From assembly GCF_003018255.1 (NCBI RefSeq), contig NZ_CP027440.1: a stretch of DNA of 64,000 nucleotides. One strand, written 5' to 3'. A program made the translations under genes and the position numbers. Numbering within the stretch: the first letter of the stretch is position 1; each line of letters begins with the position of its first letter. This document shows positions 3,745-32,398 of this stretch, in pieces. The stretch is from Escherichia coli (GTDB lineage Bacteria > Pseudomonadota > Gammaproteobacteria > Enterobacterales > Enterobacteriaceae). Under the pieces are notes generated by a model that saw only the letters and a list, made by a program, of their open reading frames with translations, was not told where the DNA came from and ran no database searches.

Positions 3745-3884
3745 ATTTGTGGTAAATGGGCGGCTGGTGGGGGTTAGGGGCACTCACCAGCCATCTGCTC
3801 ATGCGTCCGGATCACAAGCAAACCTCAGGCCCACTGCTTTGCGCAAAAGCAGAATGAGCCTATCAGAGACAGGCTTAATGATCC

Positions 3885-4943
3885 ATGTTTAATACTGTAA
3901 AAATATCCAGTTGTGAGTTAATCAACGCTGACTGCCTGGAATTTATCCGGTCGTTACCCGAAAATTCTGTTGACCTGATAGTCACGGACCCGCCGTACTT
4001 TAAAGTGAAGCCTGAGGGCTGGGATAACCAGTGGAAGGGCGACGATGACTACCTGAAGTGGCTGGACCTGTGTCTGGCGCAGTTCTGGCGGGTGCTGAAA
4101 CCTGCCGGAAGTCTTTACCTGTTCTGTGGCCATCGCCTGGCATCTGACATTGAAATCATGATGCGTGAACGCTTCAGTGTGCTGAACCATATTATCTGGG
4201 CAAAGCCGTCCGGACGCTGGAACGGGTGCAACAAGGAAAGCCTGCGGGCGTATTTCCCCGCCACAGAGCGCATTCTGTTCGCGGAACATTATCAGGGGCC
4301 GTATCGCCCGAAAGATGCCGGGTATGAGGCGAAGGGCAGGGCACTGAAACAGCATGTGATGGCCCCGCTGATTTCTTACTTTCGTGATGCGCGTGCTGCC
4401 CTGGGGATAACGGCAAAACAGATAGTGGATGCCACAGGAAAGAAAAACATGGTGTCGCACTGGTTCAGTGCCAGTCAGTGGCAGCTACCGAACGAAAGCG
4501 ATTATCTGAAATTACAGGCGCTGTTTGCCCGGGTGGCAGAAGAGAAGCATCAGCGGGGGGAACTGGAGAAGCCCCACCACCAGCTGCTGGAGACGTATAC
4601 TTCACTGAACCGGCAGTATGCGGAACTGCAGAGTGAATATAAGCATCTGCGGCGGTATTTTGGCGTGACGGCGCAGGTGCCGTACACGGATGTGTGGACG
4701 CATAAACCGGTGCAGTACTATCCCGGGAAACATCCGTGCGAAAAACCGGCAGAAATGCTGCAGCAGATAATCAGCGCGAGCAGTCGTCCGGGTGACCTGG
4801 TTGCAGATTTTTTCATGGGGTCGGGTTCGACAGTCAAAGCCGCGATGGCGCTGGGGCGTCGTGCAACTGGCGTTGAGCTGGAGACTGAACGTTTTGAGCA
4901 GACGGTCAGGGAAGTTCAGGATTTAGTCAGTCAGAACGGATGA
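3885..4943 (+). CDS. orphan DNA N6-adenine/N4-cytosine methyltransferase (beta-class, N6_N4_Mtase type)
   Basis: 352 aa. DPPY catalytic motif near the N-terminus (VTDPPYF) and the AdoMet motif FMGSGST near the C-terminus. No adjacent restriction gene. Confidence 0.9.
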   Translation: MFNTVKISSCELINADCLEFIRSLPENSVDLIVTDPPYFKVKPEGWDNQWKGDDDYLKWLDLCLAQFWRVLKPAGSLYLFCGHRLASDIEIMMRERFSVLNHIIWAKPSGRWNGCNKESLRAYFPATERILFAEHYQGPYRPKDAGYEAKGRALKQHVMAPLISYFRDARAALGITAKQIVDATGKKNMVSHWFSASQWQLPNESDYLKLQALFARVAEEKHQRGELEKPHHQLLETYTSLNRQYAELQSEYKHLRRYFGVTAQVPYTDVWTHKPVQYYPGKHPCEKPAEMLQQIISASSRPGDLVADFFMGSGSTVKAAMALGRRATGVELETERFEQTVREVQDLVSQNG

Positions 4944-4945
4944 TA

Positions 4946-4974
4946 TTGCAGGATTAGTTACGTACCGTTATTAT
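4946..4974 (+). promoter_or_regulatory. promoter of the phage tRNA genes
   Basis: TTGCAG, 17-bp spacer, TATTAT; ends 9 bp before the first tRNA. Confidence 0.6.
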
Positions 4975-4983
4975 CCTGCGACC

Positions 4984-5059
4984 GGCCCTTTAGCTCAGTG
5001 GTGAGAGCGAGCGACTCATAATCGCCAGGTCGCTGGTTCAAATCCAGCAAGGGCCACCA
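4984..5059 (+). tRNA. tRNA with CAU anticodon, ileX/ileZ-like (Ile2 lysidine type; Met cannot be excluded)
   Basis: Hand-folded cloverleaf: acceptor GGCCCTT/AAGGGCC, D arm GCTC..GAGC, anticodon loop CTCATAA, T arm GCTGG-TTCAAAT-CCAGC, encoded CCA. Closely resembles my recollection of E. coli ileX. Confidence 0.85.
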
Positions 5060-5068
5060 TATCACATA

Positions 5069-5145
5069 CCGCCATTAGCTCATCGGGATAGAGCGCCAGC
5101 CTTCGAAGCTGGCTGCGCGGGGTTCGAGTCCTCGATGGCGGTCCA
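5069..5145 (+). tRNA. tRNA-Arg (UCG anticodon)
   Basis: Hand-folded cloverleaf: acceptor CCGCCAT/ATGGCGG, D arm GCTC..GAGC, anticodon stem CCAGC/GCTGG with loop CTTCGAA, T loop GGTTCGAGTCC, encoded CCA. Confidence 0.8.
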
Positions 5146-5423
5146 TTATCTGCATTATGCGTTGTTGGTTCTGATGAGTGAATCATTGTCTTTTGAGCAA
5201 CAGGCTATCATATAAGATAGCCTCAGACTTCCTTGTTTATTCTCGCCGGATGCTTCGTAGATATTTGCAGGCATCTGTATGCAGGGGTATTATTGCGGCA
5301 TATATCATCCGGAAAAATAAAAACTACATGCTGATCCGGAGATGATAGTTACAAGTCCTCCCGGATCCCGCATATTTACTATATTTTATAGATAATTGTT
5401 CTTGTTAATATGGAGATGGATAA

Positions 5424-5852
5424 ATGTATTGCCGTGCTGTACCTGTTCTTGTTTTGATATTAGCCAGTCTGACAACTGGCTGCACAAAAGATGTATCGAC
5501 AAATAATCATGATGCTTCTCTGTATCACTCAGATAAATTAATAACGTCGCAAAAATTGAGCTCATCGGAACGTACCCCTGATGCCAGTGAAGAAATCCGG
5601 CAGTATGCCATTCAGGTCAGGAAAGCCATAGAAGAACAGTTAAAGGATGCGAGTAAGTATTCAGGAAAAGAGTGTTCACTGAGAATGTATATGGCCCCGA
5701 ATGGTCTTCTGCTACGGGTTAAAAGAGAAAGCGGTGATCCCGATTTATGTCGTGAAGCGATGAATGCAGTAAAGAATGCTGATATACCATCACCACCGTC
5801 TTCAGGAGTATATAAAGCATTTAGAAATGGCGTGCTGGATTTTAAACTCTGA
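5424..5852 (+). CDS. lipoprotein carrying a TolA C-terminal (domain III)-like domain
   Basis: 142 aa. Signal peptide plus lipobox LTTG|C. The C-terminal ~85 aa align with the remembered E. coli TolA C-terminus (YSGKECSLRMYMAPNGLLLRV..GDPDLCREAMNAV...PSPPSSGVYKAFRNGVLDFKL vs YAGKTCTLRIKLAPDGMLLDI..GDPALCQAALAAA...PKPPSQAVYEVFKNAPLDFKP). Confidence 0.8.
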   Translation: MYCRAVPVLVLILASLTTGCTKDVSTNNHDASLYHSDKLITSQKLSSSERTPDASEEIRQYAIQVRKAIEEQLKDASKYSGKECSLRMYMAPNGLLLRVKRESGDPDLCREAMNAVKNADIPSPPSSGVYKAFRNGVLDFKL

Positions 5853-5906
5853 CAGGGGGAGAAGATTTTCTCCTGTCCTGATGATTTTGGGGCGCTGGAA
5901 AGATAT

Positions 5907-6164
5907 TGTGCTGTGAAGTGTTAAATCCCTCACAATTCAGTAAGTTGACAGTTGCCTGTCAGACTGAGCATTTGTTAAAAAAATTTCGCATGGTGAATCC
6001 CCCTGTGCGGAGGGGCGACTGGTGAACGGTATGATCTCTTTGATGATCGTAAGCGAGAATACGCGGGTTTGGTGTCACCGGGCTGAACTCACCGGGAGGC
6101 ACCCGGCACCATGCTCATGGTGATACAGAAATGCGGCTTCAGCCCCTCTCCGGAGGGGCTTTCT
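5907..6164 (+). ncRNA. solitary copy (unit A) of the ~250-bp structured-RNA unit
   Basis: Same four conserved boxes as the 7885-8904 array. Closing stem 5988-5995 GCATGGTG / 6107-6114 CACCATGC. Terminator GCCCCTC-TCCG-GAGGGGC at 6141-6157. Confidence 0.5.
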
Positions 6165-6170
6165 TATGGA

Positions 6171-6239
6171 CAAAAAAAGCCCGCGCTGGGAGACGCGGGC
6201 GGCAAGGAATAAACAATAAAACGTGAAGTAATACTTCAA
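6171..6239 (-). ncRNA. candidate small RNA, copy 1 (promoter to intrinsic terminator)
   Basis: Minus strand: TTGCGC (6275-6270), 18-bp spacer, TATTAT (6251-6246), then ~69 nt ending in GCCCGCG-TCTCCCAG-CGCGGGC plus U7. Paralogue at 8911-8989. Confidence 0.5.
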
Positions 6240-6320
6240 CTGGCGAATAATACCCGACAGTAATCACTCTGCGCAATAGCGTGGCCTTTTTCGAATTGCG
6301 GGCTGTAGTCTCCCTTCTGC

Positions 6321-6484
6321 CGGGTGTCCTGGTTGCAGATTTCTTCATGGGGTAGGGTTCGGCAGTTAAAGCAGCGATGGTGCTGGGGCGTCGTGCAACT
6401 GGCGTTGAGCTGGATACCGGGCGTTTTGAACAGACTGCGCAGGAAATCAGGGATGTATTTAGCGGGAGCGGTTTGCAGAAGTAA
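6321..6484 (+). pseudogene. 3'-terminal remnant of a second DNA methyltransferase gene
   Basis: Nucleotide-level similarity to 4789-4943 (CCTGGTTGCAGATTT..TTCATGGGGT.GGGTTCG...GGGGCGTCGTGCAACTGGCGTTGAGCTGGA). Has an in-frame TAG (ATG GGG TAG) and lacks the 5' ~900 bp. Confidence 0.8.
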
Positions 6485-6547
6485 TCTCCCAAAATGCCAT
6501 TTTTGGAATATACTGGTATTAAGTCTTTTTGCTCAGGTTAATTCAAA

Positions 6548-7273
6548 ATGGATGTTGCCTGCTCTGTGGTCCTGATTCGCTATCCGATAGATATTTTTCT
6601 TGAAAAAGAAAAAGTTTCACTCGATGCCGGAAGTGTTATGCTTGTTGCCAGAAATATAAGAGGGCTTTTCTGTGCTTATGCCGACAGAGTGAAAATGGCA
6701 GATATAAGTAACAGCGTCGTCAATCAGTATCTGGAAAGGGAGTGTGAACTGACGGAGTATACACCGACAAAAATGCCTCTTTATTTGATGTCTGATATTT
6801 ACAATACGGAACTGGCGGAGGCTTTAATAACCCAGCATAGTGAATCCAGTGATACTTTGAAGGATTTCTCTGTTATAACCGCATTTTCATGTATCTCCTT
6901 ATTTGCAACAGACAGACGTCTGCCATTATTTTTGTCCGGTGCTGTAAATAATATCAGCTGTAAAGTAAGGGCTATAATTCAGACCGACATATCGGCAGGC
7001 TGGATGCTTGGTGTGATTGCATTACAATTGCATATGAGCGAAAGCTTGTTGAAGCGAAAACTTAAGGATGAAGGTTATAGCTTTAGTCGGTTGTTGCTGG
7101 AGGAGCGAATGCGTGTTGCTGTTAATCTTGTATGTTTCCAGCGAGAGTGTGGACAAGCGATAGCGGAAAAATGTGGTTACTCAAGTAAGTCCTACTTCAT
7201 TTCTGTATTTCACCAGTATTATGGTGCACCACCTGAGAGCTATGCATATTTGCAGAAAGCAGACGTTATCTGA
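6548..7273 (+). CDS. AraC/XylS-family transcriptional regulator (prophage Psr/PatE-like)
   Basis: 241 aa. The C-terminal double HTH is typical of AraC (LLKRKLKDEGYSFSRLLLEERMRVAVNLV...IAEKCGYSSKSYFISVFHQYYGAPP). AT-rich moron. Confidence 0.8.
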   Translation: MDVACSVVLIRYPIDIFLEKEKVSLDAGSVMLVARNIRGLFCAYADRVKMADISNSVVNQYLERECELTEYTPTKMPLYLMSDIYNTELAEALITQHSESSDTLKDFSVITAFSCISLFATDRRLPLFLSGAVNNISCKVRAIIQTDISAGWMLGVIALQLHMSESLLKRKLKDEGYSFSRLLLEERMRVAVNLVCFQRECGQAIAEKCGYSSKSYFISVFHQYYGAPPESYAYLQKADVI

Positions 7274-7362
7274 TGTTTTTTCATCAGGCATATATTGATT
7301 GACTGTATTAGATATAGTCTGAATGTGTTCAGCATAAAAAGTTATAATCATTTGGTGTTTGC

Positions 7363-7641
7363 GTGAATATTGATGAGAAAATCAGATGTAGCCAACTGTT
7401 ACAGCGTATTGAAGCCGTCAATGTGGAACGAACAAAGGTCTTCAGTCGTCTGACAGTTTTATTTTGTACCCCTGATCGACGTTCAGGTCAGGAGATGGTT
7501 CTTCTGGATGTAGATGCACTTCGGAACGTCTGTGAGGAGTTCACCGCGGCTAATTCGGAGTTACTGAGTCTTGTTCAGGAGTACAACAGAATTGCAGGTA
7601 GTAACGGTTTTGATGAAATCAAAATTATATCCCGTGGATAA
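7363..7641 (+). CDS. hypothetical protein
   Basis: 92 aa, GTG start. Followed by the CCTGTAT...ATACAGG hairpin plus T-run (7651-7680). No family recognised. Confidence 0.4.
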   Translation: MNIDEKIRCSQLLQRIEAVNVERTKVFSRLTVLFCTPDRRSGQEMVLLDVDALRNVCEEFTAANSELLSLVQEYNRIAGSNGFDEIKIISRG

Positions 7642-7884
7642 AACATATCCTGTATATTTATGTTGTTACATACAGGCGCTTTTAGTATCTGCCGCACGGC
7701 AGTTGTACTTCAGAATAAGATGCTTTTGTGACTGGTGGTGTTGTATCTGGGGTTAGCCAGTAGGCAGGTTCAGAGAGTCCGGTGGTAATTATGTGTATGC
7801 AGTGGTTGTTGCTGTACCGTGGGCAAGTTCTGGAACTGGCTTCGTCCATTGTAGATGATTGTTAGCTGGATATCAGTTACCTCA

Positions 7885-8904
7885 TGGAAATGTTAAATGA
7901 CTCACAATTCGGTTGATGGGCTATTGTCTGATCGATGGAAGTCTTGTAAAAACGAGCCAGCATAGTGAATCCCCCTGTGCGGAGGGGCGTCTGACATGGT
8001 CTCCATAGCGATGGTCACAATACGCAGATTCAGTAGTCAGGCTGAATCTACCGGGAGGCACCCGGCACTATGCTGCTTATGGTGTATACATAGCGATCGG
8101 CCCCTCTCCGGAGGGGCTTTTTTTGTGCGGGAAAAGGCTGTGTTGTTAAGTGTTAAATTCCTCACAGTTCGGATGGTTGATGCTTGCCTGTCTGAGGGGG
8201 AGTTGTTAAAAAAGTTCTGCATGGTGAATCCCCCTGTGCGGAGGGGCGACTGGTGTGATTTGCATCTTTTCTGTTGTAGGCAATGCAAACGCGGGTTCAG
8301 GGACGCCAGACTGGACTCACCGGGAGGCACCCGGCACCATGTTCATGATGATACAGATACGCAGTGTCAGCCCCTCTCCTGAGGGGCTTTTTTATGCAGG
8401 AAAAACGCTGTGTTGTGAAATGTTAAATTCCTCACAGTTCAGATGGTTGATGCTTGCCTGTCTGAGGGGGAGTTGTTAAAAAAGTTCTGCATGGTGAATC
8501 CCCCTGAGCGGAGGGGCATATCAGCGCAGGTGTTTCTACTCTATCCTTTCTGTGCGGGTTCAGGTGCTGATACTGAACTCACCGGGAGGCACCCGGCATC
8601 ATGCATATGGTTAACAGACACGTAGCGAAGCCCCTCTCCGGAGGGGCTTTTTTATGCAGGGAAAAGGCTGTGTTGTGAAATGTTAAATTCCTCACAATTC
8701 ATGAGGTTGATGATTGTCTGATTGATGAGGAGTTTGTTAAAAAAAACGGGCATGGTGAATCCCCCTGTGCGGAGGGGTGATATCGTATCATTTCCTGTGT
8801 GGCCGACTGATATCACGGACATTTGTTCACCGGGAGGCACCCGGCACCATGCAGTATACAGAGATTAGGCATACATCCAGGCTCCTCATCGCAGGAGCCT
8901 TTTT
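7885..8904 (+). repeat. tandem array of four ~240-270-bp structured-RNA units (B 7885-8124, C 8125-8393, D 8394-8653, E 8654-8904)
   Basis: Each unit has box 1 TGTTAAAT.CCTCACA(A/G)TTC, box 2 TTGTTAAAAAA..GCATGGTGAATCCCCCTGTGCGGAGGGGC, box 3 CACCGGGAGGCACCCGGCACCATG, and an intrinsic terminator with a T-run. The ORFs crossing the units differ in frame and length. Confidence 0.85.
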
Positions 8905-8910
8905 ACATGT

Positions 8911-19731: not shown

Positions 19732-21669
19732 GTGACTCTTAAACGGGCCTGCTCCCTGCTGACGGTGAAATCCTTCAGTGAGGATGAGAGGGTGATCACC
19801 GGGATTGCGTCAACGCCTTCTCCGGATCGGGATGGTGACATCCTGGAGCCGGAGGGCGCGGAGTTTGGCAGTGCGATCCCGTTTCTCTGGCAGCATGACC
19901 ATTCCCGCCCGGTGGGGCAGTGTACGGTGCGCCGGGTCAGCGAAGGGCTGGAAATCACGGCAACACTGGCGAAGCCCGTGCCGGATATGCCATCGCAACT
20001 GGCTGCCAGGCTGGATGAGGCCTGGGCGGCCATTAAGACCGGGCTGGTCAGGGGGCTGTCCGTGGGCTTCCGTCCTCATGAATACACCTTTCTGGACGGA
20101 GGCGGACTGCATTTTCTGCGCTGGGAGCTGATGGAGGTGTCTGCCGTCACCGTGCCCGCGAATGCGGAATGCACCATCCGGACCATTAAATCTTACGACC
20201 GCCAGTTTTCTGCCGCGTCCGGCAACCGGAAACCGGTGGTGAAAATCGCATCTTCTGCCGGCGCTGCGGCACAGTCAACAACCGTTTTTCATAAGGAAAA
20301 GACCATAATGAATATTGGCGAACAGATTAAAAGTTTTGAAAACAAGCGTGCAGCACTGGCAGCCTCCCTTGAGGAGGTCATGACCAAAGCCGCAGAGGAA
20401 GGGCGCACGCTGGATGTGGAGGAGGAAGAGCATTACGACAACACCGCAGCGGAAATACGTCAGGTGGATGCGCACCTGAAGCGCCTGCGTGAACTGGAAG
20501 CCGGTAAGGCCGCCACGGCGCAGCCGGTGAAACAGGCCGGTAACGGGAATGTGGCCGCGGTGGCTTCTGCGCCTGTGATCCGTGTGGAGCAGAAACTGGA
20601 TAAGGGGATTGGTTTCGCACGTTTTGCCAAATCGCTGGCTGCGGCTAAAGGTGTCCGCTCTGAAGCCCTGGAAGTGGCCCGTCGTCAGTATCCGGATGAC
20701 AGTCGTCTGCATCATGTCCTGAAATCGGCAGTGGGCGCGGGGACCACCACGGATCCGCAGTGGGCAGGCAGCCTGTCTGAATATCAGGAATACGCACAGG
20801 ACTTTATTGATTACCTGCGTCCTCAGACCATTATCGGGCGATTTGGTCAGGGCGGGATCCCTGCACTTCGTCAGGTGCCGTTCAATATCCGTGTGCACGC
20901 CCAGGTGTCGGGCGGTGCTGCCGGCTGGGTGGGGGAGGGTAAGGCAAAACCCCTGACGAAGTTTGATTTTGAATCCATCACCTTCAGTCATGCGAAGGTG
21001 TCGGCCATTGCGGTACTGACGGAAGAATTGATCCGTTTTTCCAGTCCGGCTGCTGATGCACTGGTCCGTAATGCGCTGGCGGAAGCGGTGGTGGCGCGTC
21101 TGGATACAGACTTTGTGGACCCGAAAAAAGCGGCGGTGGCAGATGTCTCCCCGGCGTCCATCACCCATGATGTGAAGGGCACGGCCTCAAGCGGTAACCC
21201 GGATGCGGATGCAGAGGCGGCGTTTGGACAGTTTGTTGCAGCAAACCTGCAGCCCACCGGTGCGGTCTGGCTGATGTCCAGCACCAATGCTCTGGCGCTG
21301 TCCATGCGTAAAAATGCGCTGGGTCAGAAAGAATACCCGGACATGACCCTGCTGGGTGGCTCCTTCCAGGGGCTGCCGGTGATTGTCTCCCAGTACGTGG
21401 GTGACCAGCTGGTGCTGGTGAATGCCCCGGATATTTATCTGGCGGATGACGGCGGCGTGGCAGTGGATATGTCCCGCGAGGCATCACTGGAAATGCAGTC
21501 TGAGCCGACCGGCGACAGTACCACGCCGTCGCCGGTGGAGCTGGTTTCCATGTTCCAGACAGGCAGCGTGGCCATCCGTGCGGAGCGCTGGATCAACTGG
21601 CGTCGTCGCCGTACCGCGGCGGTGGCGGTGATCACCGGAGTGAACTATGGCAGTGCGTCCGGCGGCTGA
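19732..21669 (+). CDS. fused prohead protease (S78/U35) - scaffold-like delta domain - HK97-fold major capsid protein
   Basis: 645 aa. The N-terminal ~170 aa are protease-like (ITGIASTPSPDRDGDILEPEGAEF). A coiled-coil segment follows (MNIGEQIKSFENKRAALAASLEEV...), then the capsid domain. Confidence 0.75.
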   Translation: MTLKRACSLLTVKSFSEDERVITGIASTPSPDRDGDILEPEGAEFGSAIPFLWQHDHSRPVGQCTVRRVSEGLEITATLAKPVPDMPSQLAARLDEAWAAIKTGLVRGLSVGFRPHEYTFLDGGGLHFLRWELMEVSAVTVPANAECTIRTIKSYDRQFSAASGNRKPVVKIASSAGAAAQSTTVFHKEKTIMNIGEQIKSFENKRAALAASLEEVMTKAAEEGRTLDVEEEEHYDNTAAEIRQVDAHLKRLRELEAGKAATAQPVKQAGNGNVAAVASAPVIRVEQKLDKGIGFARFAKSLAAAKGVRSEALEVARRQYPDDSRLHHVLKSAVGAGTTTDPQWAGSLSEYQEYAQDFIDYLRPQTIIGRFGQGGIPALRQVPFNIRVHAQVSGGAAGWVGEGKAKPLTKFDFESITFSHAKVSAIAVLTEELIRFSSPAADALVRNALAEAVVARLDTDFVDPKKAAVADVSPASITHDVKGTASSGNPDADAEAAFGQFVAANLQPTGAVWLMSSTNALALSMRKNALGQKEYPDMTLLGGSFQGLPVIVSQYVGDQLVLVNAPDIYLADDGGVAVDMSREASLEMQSEPTGDSTTPSPVELVSMFQTGSVAIRAERWINWRRRRTAAVAVITGVNYGSASGG

Positions 21670-21713: not shown

Positions 21714-21935
21714 ATGGCAAAGATCCGATATCTGCAGGGCACGCATGATGCCCGGGCCGGGGATATCCGTGATGTGGCACAGCCGTGTGCGGAGGTGCTG
21801 GTTCGCCTGGGAAAGGCGGAGTACATCACGGTGCGACGTCCGGCAGGTCAGAAAAAGAAACGTGATGCGGAGCATGGCGAATGTGGAACCTTTTACGGCG
21901 AACCCGAAAAAACCAGAAATCAGGACGTGACGTAA
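21714..21935 (+). CDS. hypothetical small head-module protein
   Basis: 73 aa; overlaps the portal start by 55 nt. No family recognised. Confidence 0.3.
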   Translation: MAKIRYLQGTHDARAGDIRDVAQPCAEVLVRLGKAEYITVRRPAGQKKKRDAEHGECGTFYGEPEKTRNQDVT

Positions 21936-24466
21936 GAGAGGAGGGCTGGACCAGCCTGTTTCAGGCGGTGGCTGAGCCCTTTTCCGGCGCCTGGCAGCAG
22001 GGCGTGAAAGCCGATCCTGAAGCCGTCCTCTCCTTTCATGCGGTGTTTGCATGTATTTCGCTGATATCCCAGGATATCGCCAAAATGCGGCTGCGTCTTA
22101 TGCAGACGGATGCGCATGGGATACGCAGGGAAACGCGCCGGGGGGATATTGCCCGCCTCTGTCGTCGCCCCAATGCGCAGCAGAACCGCATTCAGTTTTT
22201 TGAACTGTGGCTGAACGCCAAACTGCGTCACGGCAATACGGTGGTGCTGAAAATCCGTAATGCCCGGGGGCAGATCAAAGAACTGCGTATTCTGGACTGG
22301 AACCGGGTTGAACCTCTGGTGGCGGATGACGGCGAGGTGTTCTACCGCATCACGCCGGACCGGAACTGCGGGATCACTGAGGCGGTGACGGTGCCTGCCC
22401 GGGAAGTGATCCATGATCGGTTTAACTGTTTTTTTCATCCGCTTATAGGGTTGCCGCCGGTGTATGCCGCCGGGCTGGCGGCCACGCAGGGGCATCATAT
22501 TCAGGAAAATTCGACGTCTTTTTTCAGAAATGGCGGCAGGCCGTCCGGGGTGATTGAGATCCCCGGCAGTATTACGGAAGAAAATGCGAAAAAACTGAAG
22601 AGCAACTGGGACAGCGGGTATACAGGCGAAAATGCGGGGAAAACGGCCATTCTGAGCAACGGGGCAAAATACAACCCCACGACGTTTTCACCGGTGGATG
22701 CGCAGACGGTGGAACAACTGAAGATGACCGCTGAAATTGTCTGTTCGGTGTTCCGTGTTCCGGCCTACAAGATTGGCGTGGGACAACCGCCTTCCAGTGA
22801 CAATGTGGAGGCGCTGGAGCAGCAGTATTATTCCCAGTGCCTGCAGACGCTGATTGAGTCCATTGAACTGTTACTGGATGAGGCGCTGGAAACGGGGGAA
22901 AACGAGAGTACGGAATTTGATGTCACCACGCTGCTGAGAATGGACAGTGAGCGGCGCATGAAAACGCTGGGGGATGCGGTGAAAAATACGCTTCTCACGC
23001 CCAATGAGGCCCGTAAACGGGAGAACCTGCCGCCCCTGGCCGGCGGAGATGCACTGTATCTTCAGCAGCAGAACTACAGTCTGGAGGCGCTGTCCCGTCG
23101 TGATGCCCGTGAGGATCCGTTCGCGTCGACCGGGAAAACGGCCTTAGCGCAACCGCCTGACGGCGCATCTGACGGTAATAAGGCAATCACTGAAACAGAG
23201 CATGATGCGGTGAAGGCGATGTTCAGGGGGGATACTGCGAAAATGACGGAACGGGAACTGTCCATTATCCGTGCGCTGGGTGAAGAATTTTCCGCAGTGC
23301 TGGCGGATTTACAGCGCACATTTGAGGGGAAAATAGCCGCGCAGGCACAAACGTTTGAAGAAAAACTGGCGTCCCTGTCTGTGGTATTACAGAAGTGCGT
23401 GACGGGCGATGATGTGCGTCCGATGCTTGAGCAGATGGTGAAGGAGGCGGTAAGCCATATCCCTGTTCCGCGTGATGGTCGTGATTACGATCCGGAAGTA
23501 CTGCAGAAGGCGGTGAATGATGCGGTCGCAAATATTCCGCAGCCGGCGGACGGTAAAAGTCTCACCCCGGATGATGTGCGTCCGATGCTTGAACAGATGG
23601 TGACAGAGGCAGTGAGCCATATTCCTGTTCCGCGTGATGGTCGTGACTACGATCCGGATGTTCTGCAGAAGGCGGTGAATGATGCGGTCGCAAATATTCC
23701 GCAGCCGGCGGACGGTAAAAGTCTCACCCCGGATGATGTGCGTCCGATGCTTGAACAGATGGTGAAGGAGGCGGTAAGCCATATCCCTGTTCCGCGTGAT
23801 GGTCGTGACTACGATCCGGATGTTCTGCAGAAGGCGGTGAATGATGCGGTCGCAAATATTCCGCAGCCGGCAGACGGTAAAAGTATCACCCCGGATGATG
23901 TGCGTCCGATGCTTGAACAGATGGTGAAGGAGGCGGTAAGCCATATTCCTGTTCCGCGTGATGGTCGTGACTATGATCCCGATGTTCTGCAGAAGGCTGT
24001 TCTGGATGCGGTGAGTGCCCTGCCGGCTCCGCAGGATGGGCGTGATGCCACTGCACTGGAAATACTCCCTGCCATTGACGATCAAAAATCCTTTCCCCGG
24101 GGCACGTATGCCACACACCAGGGCGGACTCTGGCGGGCGTATGAAAAAACGCACGGGATGCGGGGATGGGAATGCCTGGTTGACGGGGTGGCGGATATTG
24201 ACGTCAGCATTACGGGGGAACGGTCGTTCTCTGTGGTGATCCGGCAGAGCAGTGGTCAGTGTACGGAAAAAACATTTTCCCTGCCGGTGATGCTCTACCG
24301 CGGTGTGTTCAGAGCCGGTGAAACCTACCACCCCGGCGATACGGTAACGTGGGGCGGCTCGTTGTGGCACTGCAACAGTATGACCGGTGATAAACCCGGA
24401 GAAGCTCATTCATCAGGCTGGACCCTGGCTGCAAAACGTGGGCGGGATGCAGGAGGTGGAAAGTGA
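21881..24466 (+). CDS. portal protein (HK97 family) with a ~440-aa C-terminal extension (coiled coil, 54-aa repeats, beta-rich terminal domain)
   Basis: 861 aa. The N-terminal ~420 aa are portal-like (size, position, FHPLIGLPPVYAAGLAA..., ENAGKTAILSNGAKY). The remainder is atypical for portals. Confidence 0.7.
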   Translation: MWNLLRRTRKNQKSGRDVREEGWTSLFQAVAEPFSGAWQQGVKADPEAVLSFHAVFACISLISQDIAKMRLRLMQTDAHGIRRETRRGDIARLCRRPNAQQNRIQFFELWLNAKLRHGNTVVLKIRNARGQIKELRILDWNRVEPLVADDGEVFYRITPDRNCGITEAVTVPAREVIHDRFNCFFHPLIGLPPVYAAGLAATQGHHIQENSTSFFRNGGRPSGVIEIPGSITEENAKKLKSNWDSGYTGENAGKTAILSNGAKYNPTTFSPVDAQTVEQLKMTAEIVCSVFRVPAYKIGVGQPPSSDNVEALEQQYYSQCLQTLIESIELLLDEALETGENESTEFDVTTLLRMDSERRMKTLGDAVKNTLLTPNEARKRENLPPLAGGDALYLQQQNYSLEALSRRDAREDPFASTGKTALAQPPDGASDGNKAITETEHDAVKAMFRGDTAKMTERELSIIRALGEEFSAVLADLQRTFEGKIAAQAQTFEEKLASLSVVLQKCVTGDDVRPMLEQMVKEAVSHIPVPRDGRDYDPEVLQKAVNDAVANIPQPADGKSLTPDDVRPMLEQMVTEAVSHIPVPRDGRDYDPDVLQKAVNDAVANIPQPADGKSLTPDDVRPMLEQMVKEAVSHIPVPRDGRDYDPDVLQKAVNDAVANIPQPADGKSITPDDVRPMLEQMVKEAVSHIPVPRDGRDYDPDVLQKAVLDAVSALPAPQDGRDATALEILPAIDDQKSFPRGTYATHQGGLWRAYEKTHGMRGWECLVDGVADIDVSITGERSFSVVIRQSSGQCTEKTFSLPVMLYRGVFRAGETYHPGDTVTWGGSLWHCNSMTGDKPGEAHSSGWTLAAKRGRDAGGGK
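23408..23995 (+). repeat. in-frame 162-bp tandem repeats inside the portal gene (3 full copies plus ~100 bp of a fourth)
   Basis: Units start at 23408, 23570, 23732 and 23894, each beginning GATGATGTGCGTCCGATGCTTGA. Each encodes DDVRPMLEQMVKEAVSHIPVPRDGRDYDP(E/D)VLQKAVNDAVANIPQPADGKS(L/I)TP. Confidence 0.95.
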
Positions 24467-24789
24467 CGGCATTACTGACACTGGAAGAGATCAAGGCACA
24501 TCTGCGTGTTGACCATGACGAGGACGATGAGATGCTGATGGACAAGGTTCGTCAGGCTACCGCCGTGCTGCTGGCCTACATTCAGGGCAGCCGGGATAAG
24601 GTGATTCGTGAGGACGGTGAACTGATCCCGGGTGAGGCATTAATCCGGATGAAGGGGGCTGCCATGCGACTGACCGGGATGCTGTACCGGAATCCGGATC
24701 TTGCAGAGCGGGAAGAACTGATTCAGGGGGAGCTGCCGTTTTCTGTGTCCGTGCTGATTTACGATTTGCGTTGTCCGACGGTGTTATGA
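24463..24789 (+). CDS. head-tail connector (gp6-like DNA-packaging/adaptor protein)
   Basis: 108 aa. GTGA overlap with the portal stop; SD AGGAGGTGG. LTLEEIKAHLRVDHDEDDEMLMDKVRQA is typical of Phage_connect_1. Confidence 0.7.
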   Translation: MTALLTLEEIKAHLRVDHDEDDEMLMDKVRQATAVLLAYIQGSRDKVIREDGELIPGEALIRMKGAAMRLTGMLYRNPDLAEREELIQGELPFSVSVLIYDLRCPTVL

Positions 24790-26000: not shown

Positions 26001-26717
26001 ATGTCTGCTTTGTATGAACGCTCACAGCTGACGCAGGTGATGATTTCATCTGCCCCGGCGACTGCTGAAATTATGGATAAGGCGGAATATCTGCGCCTGG
26101 ACTGCACCATCAAGGAAGTCCAGTTCACCGCCGGTCAGAAACAGGATATTGATGTGACCACGCTCTGCTCCACAGAGCAGGAGAACATCAACGGTCTGGG
26201 GGCGTCGTCCGAGATTTCCATGTCGGGTAATTTTTATCTGAATCAGGCCCAGAACGCCCTGCGTGATGCTTATGACAATGACGCGTTGTATGCGTTTAAG
26301 GTGCAGTTTCCGTCCGGTAAGGGCTTTAAATTCCTGGCGGAAGTGCGTCAGCACACCTGGTCATCCGGTACCAACGGCGTGGTGGCTGCAACGTTCTCAC
26401 TGCGTCTGAAAGGCAAACCGGTGTCCTTTGTGGTACCGCTGGCGTTTGTGAAAAATCTGGATAAGACACTTACCGTGAATACCGGTGCGCTGCTGACAAT
26501 GTCAGTCAGTGCCAACGGGGGAATGCCGCCGTATAAATACGCCTGGAAGAAGGATGGTCAGCCGGTTGACGGGCAGACGACAGACACCTTCAGTAAGCCC
26601 GGTGCGCAGTCCGCTGATGCGGGGAAATATACCTGCGTGGTGACCGATTCGGCAGAGAAAGCACAGAGTGTGACGTCTGTTGAATGCACCGTGACAGTGA
26701 GCGCAGCCGCCGGATAA
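26001..26717 (+). CDS. major tail protein with C-terminal Ig-like domain
   Basis: 238 aa. The C-terminal PPYKYAWKKDGQPVDGQTTDTFSKPGAQSADAGKYTCVVTDS is an I-set Ig signature. Confidence 0.75.
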   Translation: MSALYERSQLTQVMISSAPATAEIMDKAEYLRLDCTIKEVQFTAGQKQDIDVTTLCSTEQENINGLGASSEISMSGNFYLNQAQNALRDAYDNDALYAFKVQFPSGKGFKFLAEVRQHTWSSGTNGVVAATFSLRLKGKPVSFVVPLAFVKNLDKTLTVNTGALLTMSVSANGGMPPYKYAWKKDGQPVDGQTTDTFSKPGAQSADAGKYTCVVTDSAEKAQSVTSVECTVTVSAAAG

Positions 26718-31234: not shown

Positions 31235-32398
31235 ATGAAAAAAATGACAGTGGCACTTTCTGCTGTAGCAGTTGCAGTGATGTTTGCTGCGGGGGCGCAG
31301 GCAGCAGAAGTTTATAATAAAGATGGTAATAAACTGGATCTTTACGGGCGTGCAACCGCTCTGCATTACTTCTCGGATGATAAAGGTAATGACGGAGATC
31401 AGACTTATGCTCGTCTCGGCTTTAAAGGCGAAACGCAGATTAATGATCAACTGACCGGATTTGGTCAGTGGGAATACCAGTTCTCTGGTAACAAAACGGA
31501 ATCTGAAGGTTCCGCGGGAAATAAAACCCGTCTGGCATTTGCAGGTCTGAGATTTGCTGATGTTGGTAGCATTGATTACGGACGTAACTACGGTATTGCT
31601 TACGATGTCGGATCATATACTGACGTACTGCCAGAGTTTGGTGGTGATGGCTGGACTCAGACCGATAACTTTATGACTGCCCGAACTTCCGGAGTTCTGA
31701 CTTACCGTAATACAGATTTCTTTGGGCTGGTTGATGGTCTGAATTTTGCGGCGCAGTATCAGGGCAAAAATGAGCGCGATGACCTCCAGAAGGCCAATGG
31801 TGATGGGTATGGTTTCTCAGCCAGCTATGAGTTTGATGGTTTTGGTTTTGTGGCTGCGTATACCAAGTCAGATCGTACCAATAAGCAGGTTCAGGGACTG
31901 AATGGTAGCAAAACTATTGAAATCAAAGATCCTTTAACTGGGGATGTGACTGAAAAAGAAGTGGTCGTTGATTCCGGCAGCGTTGCAAAAGGTAAACATG
32001 CTGAATTCTGGGGAACTGGTCTTAAATATGATGCCAATAACCTGTATCTGGCAGCAGTGTATTCAGAAACCCAGAATATGACGACCTTTGGTGATCAAGG
32101 TGTTGCGGATAAAGCTCAGAATATCGAAGCCGTTGTTCAGTATCAGTTTGATTTTGGTCTGCGTCCGTCTCTGGCCTACCTTCAGTCCCGAGGACAGGAT
32201 GTTATGGTTGGTGGTGTGAACCATGGCGATCAGGATCTGGTTAAATATATTGATGTCGGTGCGACTTATTACTTTAACAAGAATATGTCCACCCATGTTG
32301 ATTATAAAATTAACCTGATTGAGGAAAGTGAATTTACCCGGAAAGCCGGTGTTGCGACAGATAATATCGTTGCTGTGGGTATGACTTATCAGTTCTGA
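31235..32398 (+). CDS. general-diffusion porin of the OmpC/OmpF/PhoE/NmpC family
   Basis: 387 aa. Signal peptide ...AQA|[15 protein letters not shown], then [21 protein letters not shown], and the C-terminal ...VAVGMTYQF typical of enterobacterial porins. Confidence 0.9.

What the first reader, a model, noticed from the sequence alone, without database searches (positions are those of the whole stretch)
23080..24466. Portal protein with a ~440-aa C-terminal extension containing 162-bp in-frame tandem repeats and a terminal beta-rich domain
HK97-family portals are ~400-450 aa. This ORF continues for another ~440 aa. The extension has a helical/coiled segment (…ELSIIRALGEEFSAVLADLQRTFEGKIAAQAQTFEEKLASL). 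Then come 3.6 copies of a 54-aa repeat, each built from two 27-aa half-repeats with the pattern V..x..V..AV..IP.P.DG(K/R), reminiscent of fibre or Ig-like linker repeats. A ~150-aa C-terminal domain follows, with an aromatic/Gly motif (YHPGDTVTWGGSLWHCNSMTGDKPG) that resembles carbohydrate-binding (CBM5/12-type) modules. The repeats are nearly identical at the DNA level (recent expansion, or copy-number-variable by slippage or recombination). A portal-fused extension could form an internal barrel or ejection component, or an exposed decoration. Alternatively, this is a fusion of the portal with a downstream gene.
Basis: partly seen in the sequence, partly recalled or inferred. Interest (0 to 1): 0.5.

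Follow-up and report, generated by a model that had tools for sequence, protein, structure and literature searches.

The report
Portal fused to its downstream gene
The 861-residue "long portal" of this E. coli prophage is two normally separate phage genes, the portal and a conserved sugar-binding accessory protein, joined into one reading frame by one extra G in a run of Gs; both the joined and the split form are common in E. coli, and databases wrongly flag the split form as broken.

Summary
ORF 21881-24466 encodes 861 aa, and it contains a 162-bp x 3.6 in-frame tandem repeat (23408-23997).

The "C-terminal extension" is not part of the portal. It is the gene that normally follows the portal.
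- In 74 of 75 species-representative genomes carrying this head module, portal and "ORF2" are separate, tightly overlapping genes, typically with an ATGA junction.
- Stand-alone homologues start at the residue that corresponds to M455.
- The family has about 5,600 clusters at 50% identity.

The window carries G6 at 23226-23231 where the split alleles carry G5. The extra G removes the conserved portal C-terminus (FRGILRK*) and reads through into ORF2.

The fused allele is not rare. At least 750 complete E. coli genomes hold a fused copy, and several hundred hold a split copy. Each form occurs in phages that have been isolated or shown to transfer.

The mechanism is ordinary (a homopolymer indel). 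The interest is moderate: an uncharacterised, widespread, mis-annotated family.

The parts
21881..23242 (+). HK97-type portal gene proper (residues 1-454). The portal fold covers about residues 45-388. Residues 389-454 form a low-complexity, probably flexible C-terminal tail.
   Evidence: Pfam PF04860 residues 54-382, E 6e-81. TIGR01537 residues 45-388, 350 bits. In split alleles the portal CDS is 1365 nt = 454 aa.
23226..23231 (+). Homopolymer G6. Split alleles have G5 here. The extra G shifts the portal frame so that it reads through into ORF2. The run AGGGGG(G) is also the Shine-Dalgarno-like element 11-12 nt upstream of the ORF2 ATG.
   Evidence: Alignment of the window with phages 1717, PPompW_699 and WGPS8; sequence. 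Relatives have AGAGGA/AGGGGG at the same place, encoding the conserved portal end ..RG(L/I/F)L.K*.
23243..23245 (+). ATG that is the native start codon of ORF2 (M455 of the fused ORF). The ancestral portal stop TGA is at 23244-23246, out of frame in this allele (ATGA overlap).
   Evidence: In G5 alleles the portal ends TTC AGG GGG ATA CTG CGA AAA TGA and ORF2 starts at this ATG. Stand-alone homologues start MN(E/D)RE(L/I)S.I(K/R)A.GEE, matching MTERELSIIRALGEE. An ATGA junction occurs in 31 of 75 species loci.
23243..23407 (+). ORF2 N-terminal segment (ORF2 residues 1-55), predicted as one long alpha-helix. Inferred to be the portal-contacting or oligomerising part.
   Evidence: AF2 single-sequence secondary structure, H3-52 at pLDDT 70-76. 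dN/dS 0.15-0.30 against other alleles.
23408..23997 (+). Tandem repeat: 3.6 copies of 162 bp, i.e. 54 aa, i.e. two 27-aa helix-loop halves ending IPxPxDG(K/R). Copy number varies.
   Evidence: TRF. ORF2 lengths differ by multiples of 54 aa among E. coli prophages. Relatives have from 1 to more than 20 half-repeats. Predicted helix(13-17)-loop(12) pattern.
24035..24463 (+). Conserved C-terminal beta domain (ORF2 residues ~265-407). A seven-strand beta unit is followed by a three-strand CBM5/12-fold module (YHPGDTVTWGGSLWHC...KPG...W).
24463..24789 (+). gp6-like head-tail connector gene. It starts at a GTG that overlaps the ORF2 stop (GTGA). It is the conserved downstream neighbour.
   Evidence: Pfam Phage_connect_1. 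It follows ORF2 in the related loci.
19732..21669 (+). Prohead protease-major capsid fusion gene. It is the conserved upstream member of the module TerL / protease-MCP / portal / ORF2 / connector.
   Evidence: Pfam Peptidase_S78 plus Phage_capsid. The module order is conserved in 70+ loci from Enterobacterales to Rhizobiales.

Best explanation
The 861-aa ORF is a read-through fusion of two ancestrally separate, translationally coupled genes.

Shown:
- Gene 1 is an HK97-type portal of 454 aa. In the ancestral state it ends ...FRGILRK-TGA.
- Gene 2 (ORF2, 407 aa here) starts at an ATG that overlaps that stop (ATGA).
- In this allele the run of five Gs, 12 nt upstream of that ATG, has become six Gs. 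The portal frame therefore misses its stop and continues in the ORF2 frame.
- ORF2 belongs to a very large stand-alone phage family. In this head module it always sits between the portal and the gp6-like connector.
- ORF2 is modular: a long N-terminal helix, a variable number of 27-aa helix-loop half-repeats that expand and contract by 162-bp steps, and a strongly conserved beta domain ending in a CBM5/12 (chitin-binding type) fold.

Inferred:
- ORF2 is a portal-vertex accessory protein made in step with the portal.
- Its N-terminus contacts the portal C-terminal tail. This would explain why fusion to the portal C-terminus has arisen and persisted more than once.
- Its C-terminal module binds a conserved GlcNAc-type glycan.
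- In the fused allele every portal subunit would carry ORF2 as a tethered extension. Free ORF2 can probably still be made from the retained SD-like run plus ATG.

Not known: whether ORF2 lies inside the head at the portal crown, which is what C-terminal fusion implies, or outside at the neck.
For: Fusion origin:
- G6 against G5 is the only frame difference between the window and phages 1717, PPompW_699 and WGPS8, where the portal (454 aa) and ORF2 (407 aa) overlap by ATGA.
- The same split form is found in BP-4795 ORF58/ORF59 and in Sakai Sp10 ECs_1974/ECs_1975.
- Of 75 species-representative genomes with the module, 74 have separate ORFs. The junctions overlap by 4 nt (31 loci), 1 nt (11), 8 nt (8) or 14 nt (8).
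- The G5-frame portal end FRGILRK* matches the relatives' M(L/I)RG(L/F)L(T)K*.
- Stand-alone homologues begin at the residue aligned with M455.

Family size: 5,597 clusters at E<=1e-3 and 651 at E<=1e-30. Most are 240-600 aa and the match reaches their C-terminus.

The split form works: Sp10 was scored morphogenetically intact, was packaged, and was transferred to K-12 (PMC2669165).

ORF2 is under purifying selection in its own frame: dN/dS 0.12-0.23.

The fused form is common and persistent:
- Exact fused junctions occur in 752 + 44 complete-genome records. Exact split junctions occur in 366 + 170 + 94 records.
- In IMG/VR, 41 of 110 loci are fused.
- Within fused alleles the portal part shows 100 synonymous against 39 non-synonymous variant codons.
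- An independent, seamless portal-ORF2 fusion of about 1,240 aa exists in Pantoea (L056 and P0218).

Fold:
- AF2 pLDDT is above 90 for the C-domain.
- Foldseek hits are chitin-binding domains and phage fibres.
- Pfam CBM_5_12 passes its cut-off in homologues.
Against: - No experimental data place ORF2 in the virion or show glycan binding.
- In the window itself the CBM_5_12 hit is below Pfam's cut-off (18.7 against 26.2 bits).
- A carbohydrate-binding, fibre-like protein would be expected outside the capsid: some homologues have collagen-like stretches, and the viral structural neighbours are fibres. Portal C-termini lie inside the capsid (general knowledge of portal structures). The fused form therefore sits awkwardly with an external role.
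- Viability of the fused allele rests on phage 2851 having been isolated, which I know only from paper titles seen in reference lists, and on phi330. The deposited phi330 sequence has G6 but also a 2-nt insertion upstream and other small indels.
- Allele counts are not phylogenetically independent.
Confidence: 0.85

Rival explanations
1. A genuine long portal: the extension is an integral, co-evolved C-terminal part of the portal (an internal barrel or ejection device), and the split copies are frameshifted pseudogenes. This is how PGAP and several phage records annotate them.
For: RefSeq annotates the G5 form as 'phage portal protein, frameshifted'. WGPS8 is annotated 'portal protein (pseudogene)'. 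PHROG 2271 is an 859-aa fused profile. The fused allele is the commonest exact junction in complete E. coli genomes.
Against: 74 of 75 species-level relatives have two genes, each with its own start and with overlapping stop/start. The G5 frame restores a conserved portal C-terminus. ORF2 homologues are overwhelmingly stand-alone proteins that start at the M455 equivalent. Sakai Sp10, a split form, was scored morphogenetically intact, packaged and transferred to K-12. ORF2 remains intact and under purifying selection in split alleles.
Confidence: 0.04
2. A damaging frameshift: the extra G is a defect that spoils the portal (bulky tail, lost native C-terminus). Fused copies persist only because they sit in defective prophages or are complemented by other prophages in the same cell.
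For: The allele is derived and destroys the conserved ..RGILRK* end. STEC genomes carry several copies of this module (median 2, up to 7 junction hits per genome), often of both types, so complementation is available. About 15-20% of loci show other disruptions, as expected for a decaying prophage pool. A homopolymer is a mutational hot spot.
Against: Fused alleles form diversified clades with an excess of synonymous changes in both the portal and ORF2 parts. All other late genes around the window's copy are intact. Isolated phages 2851 and phi330 carry G6. An independent fused lineage exists in Pantoea.
Confidence: 0.2
3. A programmed or phase-variable slippage site: the G run lets ribosomes (or polymerases) shift by one base, so either allele yields both a short portal and a portal-ORF2 fusion, giving mixed portal rings.
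For: A +1 shift on AGG-GGG-G in G6, or a -1 shift on GGG in G5, regenerates exactly the other allele's product; this follows directly from the sequence. AGG and GGG are rare codons, and the run resembles a Shine-Dalgarno sequence (established stimulators of shifting; my knowledge). G5 and G6 both occur on the same junction haplotype, and one flank-identical group holds 7 G6 and 1 G5.
Against: No stable RNA structure lies downstream of the run (z = -0.07 against shuffles). The G run is not conserved outside the E. coli lineage; relatives have AGAGGA. ORF2 has its own start codon everywhere, and its frame relative to the portal varies between +1 and +2 among lineages. This fits termination-reinitiation coupling, not a conserved frameshift. 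Five or six Gs is short for transcriptional slippage.
Confidence: 0.07
4. A sequencing or assembly error in a homopolymer, so the long ORF does not exist in nature.
For: The length of a single-base homopolymer run is a classic error site. One flank-identical G5/G6 pair could be such an error.
Against: The gene is 100% identical in at least 8 complete genomes. G6 is linked to its own flanking SNPs in two clades. It is present in the independently deposited phage genomes 2851 and YYZ-2008 and in the Sanger-sequenced phi330, and in hundreds of complete genomes.
Confidence: 0.01

Closest known systems
SPP1 gp7 / Mu gpF ('MuF') minor head proteins
   Same: Both are encoded immediately downstream of the portal gene, are sometimes fused to the portal C-terminus, and have a variable C-terminal part. 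gp7 binds the portal inside the head (my knowledge of the literature). ORF2 has the same position and shows the same recurrent fusion.
   Different: There is no sequence relationship: Pfam Phage_Mu_F is not hit at E<=0.01. The architecture is different (helix-loop repeats plus a CBM5/12 beta domain). The location of ORF2 in the virion is unknown.
HK97-family portal proteins (TIGR01537 / PF04860)
   Same: Residues 1-454 are a standard member.
   Different: Residues 455-861 are not covered by any portal model, and they are a separate protein in nearly all relatives.
CBM5/12 chitin- and cellulose-binding modules (Serratia ChiB, S. griseus ChiC, Erwinia EGZ)
   Different: It is attached to a phage head-module protein, not to a glycoside hydrolase. 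The ligand is unknown. The window copy scores below Pfam's cut-off.
Phage fibre proteins with collagen-like repeats and CBM5/12 or ChiC_BD ends (BFVD neighbours; Agrobacterium phage 7-7-1 and Milano fibres)
   Same: These are the nearest structural neighbours among viral proteins. Some ORF2 homologues carry short G-X-Y stretches. The stalk has variable length.
   Different: ORF2 is encoded in the head module next to the portal, not among the tail genes. Its stalk is helix-loop repeats rather than collagen or a beta-helix.
C-terminally extended structural proteins made by frame change (lambda gpG/gpGT; Listeria phage PSA capsid and tail proteins)
   Same: Two products share an N-terminal part and differ by a one-base frame change near the 3' end of the first gene.
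   Different: Here the frame change is a heritable genomic polymorphism (G5 against G6). There is no evidence of a programmed signal.

Membership tests
HK97-type phage portal (PF04860 / TIGR01537) | Match to the curated portal models above their cut-offs | tested here: met
   PF04860 272.5 bits (cut-off 39.1), residues 54-382. TIGR01537 350.5 bits (cut-off 112), residues 45-388.
HK97-type phage portal (applied to residues 455-861) | The extension is part of the portal protein in the family at large | tested here: not met
   No portal model covers it. It is a separate ORF in 74 of 75 species loci. There are about 5,600 mostly stand-alone homologue clusters.
CBM5/12 carbohydrate-binding module | Pfam PF02839 at or above the gathering score | tested here: inconclusive
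   Window 18.7 bits, below 26.2. Homologue P0127 29.8 bits, above the cut-off. P0123 24.7 and P0218 22.6 bits. Many homologues carry a precomputed PF02839 hit.
CBM5/12 carbohydrate-binding module | Three-stranded CBM5/12 fold | tested here: met
CBM5/12 carbohydrate-binding module | Binds chitin, cellulose or a related glycan | not testable with these tools
   Needs a binding assay with the purified domain.
MuF / SPP1 gp7 minor head protein | Match to the Phage_Mu_F domain | tested here: not met
   No such hit at E<=0.01 for the window protein or for ten homologues. No NCBIfam hit.
MuF / SPP1 gp7 minor head protein | Gene directly downstream of the portal, occasionally fused to it | tested here: met
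   Adjacent and overlapping in 74 loci. Fused in E. coli G6 alleles and in Pantoea.
Programmed ribosomal frameshift site | Conserved slippery sequence with a downstream stimulatory structure and no independent start for the second frame | tested here: not met
   The G run is absent in relatives. Fold z-score is -0.07. ORF2 has its own ATG/GTG/TTG everywhere, and its frame offset varies.
Copy-number-variable in-frame tandem repeat | Near-identical units, with length differences among alleles in whole units | tested here: met
   95% matches. ORF2 lengths are 245 + 54n aa.
Collagen-like triple-helix protein | Run of G-X-Y triplets (PF01391) | tested here: not met
   None in the window protein. 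Only weak, sub-threshold hits at the ends of some homologues (P0124, P0155).

The most novel reading that the evidence does not exclude
ORF2 defines a new class of portal-tethered head protein. It would be bound, or in fused alleles covalently linked, to the portal crown inside the capsid, and would be released or ejected at infection. Its highly conserved CBM5/12 domain would grip the peptidoglycan glycan strand to help DNA delivery. The G5/G6 run would act as a heritable, and perhaps translationally leaky, switch that sets how many portal subunits carry the tether. This would make the E. coli polymorphism a natural experiment on portal C-terminal fusions.
Probability: 0.1. Interest if true: 0.7.

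Novelty: new variant of a known kind. Interest (0 to 1): 0.35.

Why it matters
1. Annotation. More than a thousand E. coli genomes, and many Stx-phage records, label the native two-gene form as a 'frameshifted' or 'pseudogene' portal. They label ORF2 'portal protein' or even 'gp6-like connector'. This distorts judgements of which STEC prophages are intact. Sakai Sp10, which was scored morphogenetically intact, packaged and transferred to K-12, has the split form.

2. An unstudied family. A family of several thousand clusters sits next to the portal in one widespread head module of Proteobacteria. It has no name, no NCBIfam model and no known function, yet its C-terminal domain is about as conserved as the core head proteins.

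3. A testable hint about location. Recurrent, persistent fusion to the portal C-terminus suggests where this protein sits. It also offers a ready-made pair of natural alleles for testing how much extra mass a portal ring tolerates.

None of this is a new principle. Gene fusion by a homopolymer indel is commonplace.

Tried and rejected
- A single-sequence AF2 model of ORF2 was too poor for fold search (pLDDT 45). I replaced it with an alignment-based model of the last 208 residues.
- The first homologue search returned only E. coli fragments. The representative search was needed to reach distant relatives.
- My first junction pattern was too narrow. It suggested that fused alleles were rare (4 of 27) and formed a single clade. 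A broader pattern and exact-junction BLASTs corrected this to 41 of 110 and to hundreds of genomes.
- I suspected ORF2-connector fusions because fragments are named 'gp6-like head-tail connector'. The sequences are just N-terminally truncated ORF2, so the name is an annotation error.
- I looked for virion proteomics of this phage type. The phi330 paper reports mass spectrometry, but the text and the one supplement file held say nothing about the portal or ORF2. The Strauch 2008 paper on phage 2851 is not held.
- phi330's own sequence is ambiguous, because it has extra small indels in several structural genes.
- The sub-threshold Pfam hits DUF4244 and TetR_C_35 on the repeat helices were dismissed as chance.
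- The precomputed family PF28083.1 listed for these proteins is not in the Pfam copy available, so I could not identify it.
Full report
**1. What is in the sequence**

The window holds a lambdoid prophage of E. coli. Its late genes are collinear with a prophage of strain 2015C-3905 that ends beside a truncated ompW gene, the 'PPompW' site. It belongs to the long-tailed Stx-phage type (Pankowvirus-like).

ORF 21881..24466 (+) encodes 861 aa. RefSeq annotates it as one 'phage portal protein' in genomes that are 100% identical over the gene.

Portal models cover only the first part. Pfam Phage_portal matches residues 54-382 (E 6e-81). TIGR01537 portal_HK97 matches residues 45-388.

Tandem Repeats Finder reports a 162-bp unit, 3.6 copies, 95% matches and no indels, at 23408-23997. 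In protein terms this is a 54-aa unit made of two 27-aa halves that end in IPxPxDG(K/R).

**2. The extension is the next gene**

In phages 1717 and PPompW_699 the same DNA is annotated as two genes: a portal of 454 aa and a second ORF of 407 aa that overlap by four bases. In WGPS8 it is annotated as a pseudogene.

Aligned with the window, the only frame difference is a run of Gs. The window has G6 at 23226-23231 and the others have G5.
- With G5 the portal reads TTC AGG GGG ATA CTG CGA AAA TGA (FRGILRK, stop), and the second gene starts at the ATG of that ATGA.
- With G6 the portal frame misses the stop and runs on as ...FRGDTAK-MTEREL..., so M455 is the native initiator of the second gene (window 23243).

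The split form is also found in BP-4795, as ORF58 and ORF59, and in Sakai prophage Sp10, as ECs_1974 and ECs_1975.

**3. Which state is ancestral**

A search of 1.84 billion cluster representatives with residues 455-861 ('ORF2') found 5,597 clusters at E<=1e-3 and 651 at E<=1e-30. Most are proteins of 240-600 aa in which the match reaches the C-terminus.

The closest stand-alone homologues begin MN(E/D)RE(L/I)S.I(K/R)A.GEE. This aligns with the window's M455-TERELSIIRALGEE.

I built an alignment of the conserved C-terminal domain and scanned one genome per bacterial species. This gave 80 loci, from Enterobacterales, Pseudomonas, Burkholderiales, Rhizobiales and Sphingomonadales, plus one Clostridia MAG. 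The module TerL / protease-capsid fusion / portal / ORF2 / gp6-like connector is conserved throughout.

In 74 of the 75 loci that contain the portal's end, portal and ORF2 are separate ORFs joined by tight overlaps: ATGA in 31, TGATG in 11, and 8- or 14-nt overlaps in 8 each. The frame of ORF2 relative to the portal differs between lineages.

In Enterobacterales the portal ends ...M(L/I)RG(L/F)L(T)K-stop. That is the G5 reading (FRGILRK*), not the G6 reading. The codons AGA GGA or AGG GGG for the Arg-Gly form a Shine-Dalgarno-like element 10-12 nt before the ORF2 ATG.

The two-gene, translationally coupled arrangement is therefore ancestral, and the window's long ORF is a derived fusion.

**4. 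The fused allele is real and common**

The gene is identical in at least eight complete genomes. The number of complete E. coli genome records with at least one exact copy of each junction is:

| Junction type | Form | Records |
|---|---|---|
| Phage-2851 type | fused | 752 |
| Window type | fused | 44 |
| Phage-2851 type | split | 366 |
| Window type | split | 170 |
| BP-4795 type | split | 94 |

Many genomes hold several copies of the module, and some hold both forms.

In IMG/VR, 41 of 110 loci are fused. Fused alleles fall mostly into two clades. A few split alleles have identical or near-identical flanks, including one haplotype with 7 G6 and 1 G5. The run therefore changes length recurrently, or is moved about by recombination. 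These counts are not phylogenetically independent.

Evidence that each form works:
- Split form: Sp10 was scored as having all morphogenetic genes conserved, was packaged, and was transferred to K-12 (PMC2669165).
- Fused form: it is carried by phage 2851 and YYZ-2008. It is also carried by the plaque-forming phi330, although that record has a 2-nt insertion upstream and other small indels, which makes it ambiguous.
- ORF2 shows dN/dS of 0.12-0.23 between fused and split alleles.
- Within fused alleles the portal part has 100 synonymous against 39 non-synonymous variant codons.
- An independent, seamless fusion of about 1,240 aa exists in Pantoea (L056 and P0218). It has no ribosome-binding signal before the internal Met.

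I conclude that the fusion is tolerated and probably functional. I cannot exclude that some copies survive by complementation.

**5. Is it a programmed frameshift?**

A +1 shift on AGG-GGG-G in G6, or a -1 shift in G5, would produce exactly the other allele's protein. The codons are rare and the run is SD-like. Against this:
- there is no stable structure downstream (z = -0.07);
- the G run is absent from relatives;
- ORF2 has its own start everywhere, and its frame offset varies.

I rate this reading at about 7%.

**6. What ORF2 is**

It has no NCBIfam model. Sources label it variously 'portal protein', 'carbohydrate binding domain protein', 'hypothetical' or, wrongly, 'gp6-like head-tail connector'. 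PHROGs has both a fused profile (phrog_2271) and a stand-alone one that is mislabelled 'portal' (phrog_1289).

Architecture:
- residues 1-52 form one long helix;
- then come helix(13-17)-loop(12) half-repeats, not Ig-like;
- E. coli alleles differ by whole 54-aa units, giving 245 to 569 aa, and relatives have from one to more than twenty half-repeats;
- the last ~145 residues are strongly conserved, with 59% mean column identity across 30 diverse homologues.

An AF2 model built on a 51-sequence alignment has pLDDT above 90 over the C-terminal domain.
- Foldseek gives the same domains, together with phage tail fibres.
- The nearest viral models are collagen-repeat, CBM5_12 and ChiC_BD phage proteins.
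- A sequence-profile search of the PDB gives weak hits to chitin-binding domains.
- Pfam CBM_5_12 is below its cut-off in the window but above it in a homologue.

**7. How it most likely works**

Shown: the origin by fusion, the modular structure, the fold of the end domain, the gene neighbourhood, and the coupling signals.

Inferred:
- ORF2 is a portal-vertex accessory protein made in step with the portal.
- Because fusion to the portal C-terminus has arisen and persisted at least twice, its N-terminus probably lies next to the flexible portal tail (residues 389-454).
- Portal C-termini face the capsid interior (general knowledge). This points to an internal, crown-bound position like SPP1 gp7 or Mu gpF, with which ORF2 shares position but not sequence.
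- The fibre-like build and the sugar-binding fold would instead suit an external neck fibre. In that case the fused copy would be merely tolerated, and free ORF2 would come from the retained SD-like run and ATG.
- Conservation of the end domain across very different hosts suggests a universal ligand, such as the peptidoglycan glycan strand, or a phage-internal partner, rather than a variable surface polysaccharide.

These alternatives need virion proteomics and cryo-EM.

**8. Verdict**

The feature is real. Its origin is ordinary (a one-base homopolymer expansion), and the long ORF is already in the databases. Three things are not widely appreciated:
- the split form is the native one;
- ORF2 is a large, unnamed family;
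- E. coli carries both states at high frequency.

I rate the finding of moderate interest.

Noticed in passing
window 7931-8910 and 5959-6171: Four head-to-tail copies of the sRNA family STnc100 (RF02076, 120-141 bits each) fill the otherwise ORF-free stretch between the antiterminator Q region and the nanS-like esterase gene. This is the place where stx genes sit in the related Stx phage phi330. A fifth copy (172 bits) lies at 5959-6171. The repeat spacing is about 260-270 nt.
   Followed up: partly
window 31235-32398: A complete OmpC-like porin gene is inserted inside the tail operon, between the gpM-like and gpL-like genes. The related Pankowvirus phi330 uses OmpC as its receptor (PMC12502783). 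A phage-borne porin variant could therefore bear on superinfection or receptor masking.
   Followed up: no
E. coli RefSeq genomes, e.g. L112 1166-3264; Klebsiella, Salmonella and Enterobacter proteins P0272, P0278, P0339: Systematic mis-annotation. PGAP marks the native split form as a 'frameshifted' portal pseudogene. N-terminally truncated ORF2 fragments are named 'phage gp6-like head-tail connector protein'.
   Followed up: yes
L056 2737-6468 (Candidatus Pantoea communis) and protein P0218: An independent, seamless portal-ORF2 fusion of about 1,240 aa. It has a Pro/Asp/Thr-rich linker and about 20 PEPLPDI-type half-repeats, and no ribosome-binding signal before the internal Met.
   Followed up: partly
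window 21714-21935: A 73-aa ORF that overlaps the portal start by 55 nt. It is annotated as hypothetical in every related record examined. It has no Pfam or NCBIfam hit.
   Followed up: no
window 26001-26717: The last ~80 residues of the major tail protein look like an Ig-type domain (..YKYAWKKDG..GKYTCVV..). In phi330 this part is annotated separately as 'Hoc-like head decoration', and in 1717 and BP-4795 the gene is annotated with a longer, upstream-overlapping start. Not tested.
   Followed up: no
L203 (phi330, PV189401) 3875-8872: The deposited phi330 sequence splits several structural genes (portal tail, ORF2 C-domain, gp10-like gene, major tail) by 1-2-nt indels, although the phage plates at high titre. 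These are probably errors of manual Sanger assembly, so the record should be used with care.
   Followed up: partly
proteins P0001-P0053: The precomputed Pfam annotation lists a family, PF28083.1, on these fused proteins. It is absent from the Pfam copy I could search, so I do not know what it is or which region it covers.
   Followed up: no
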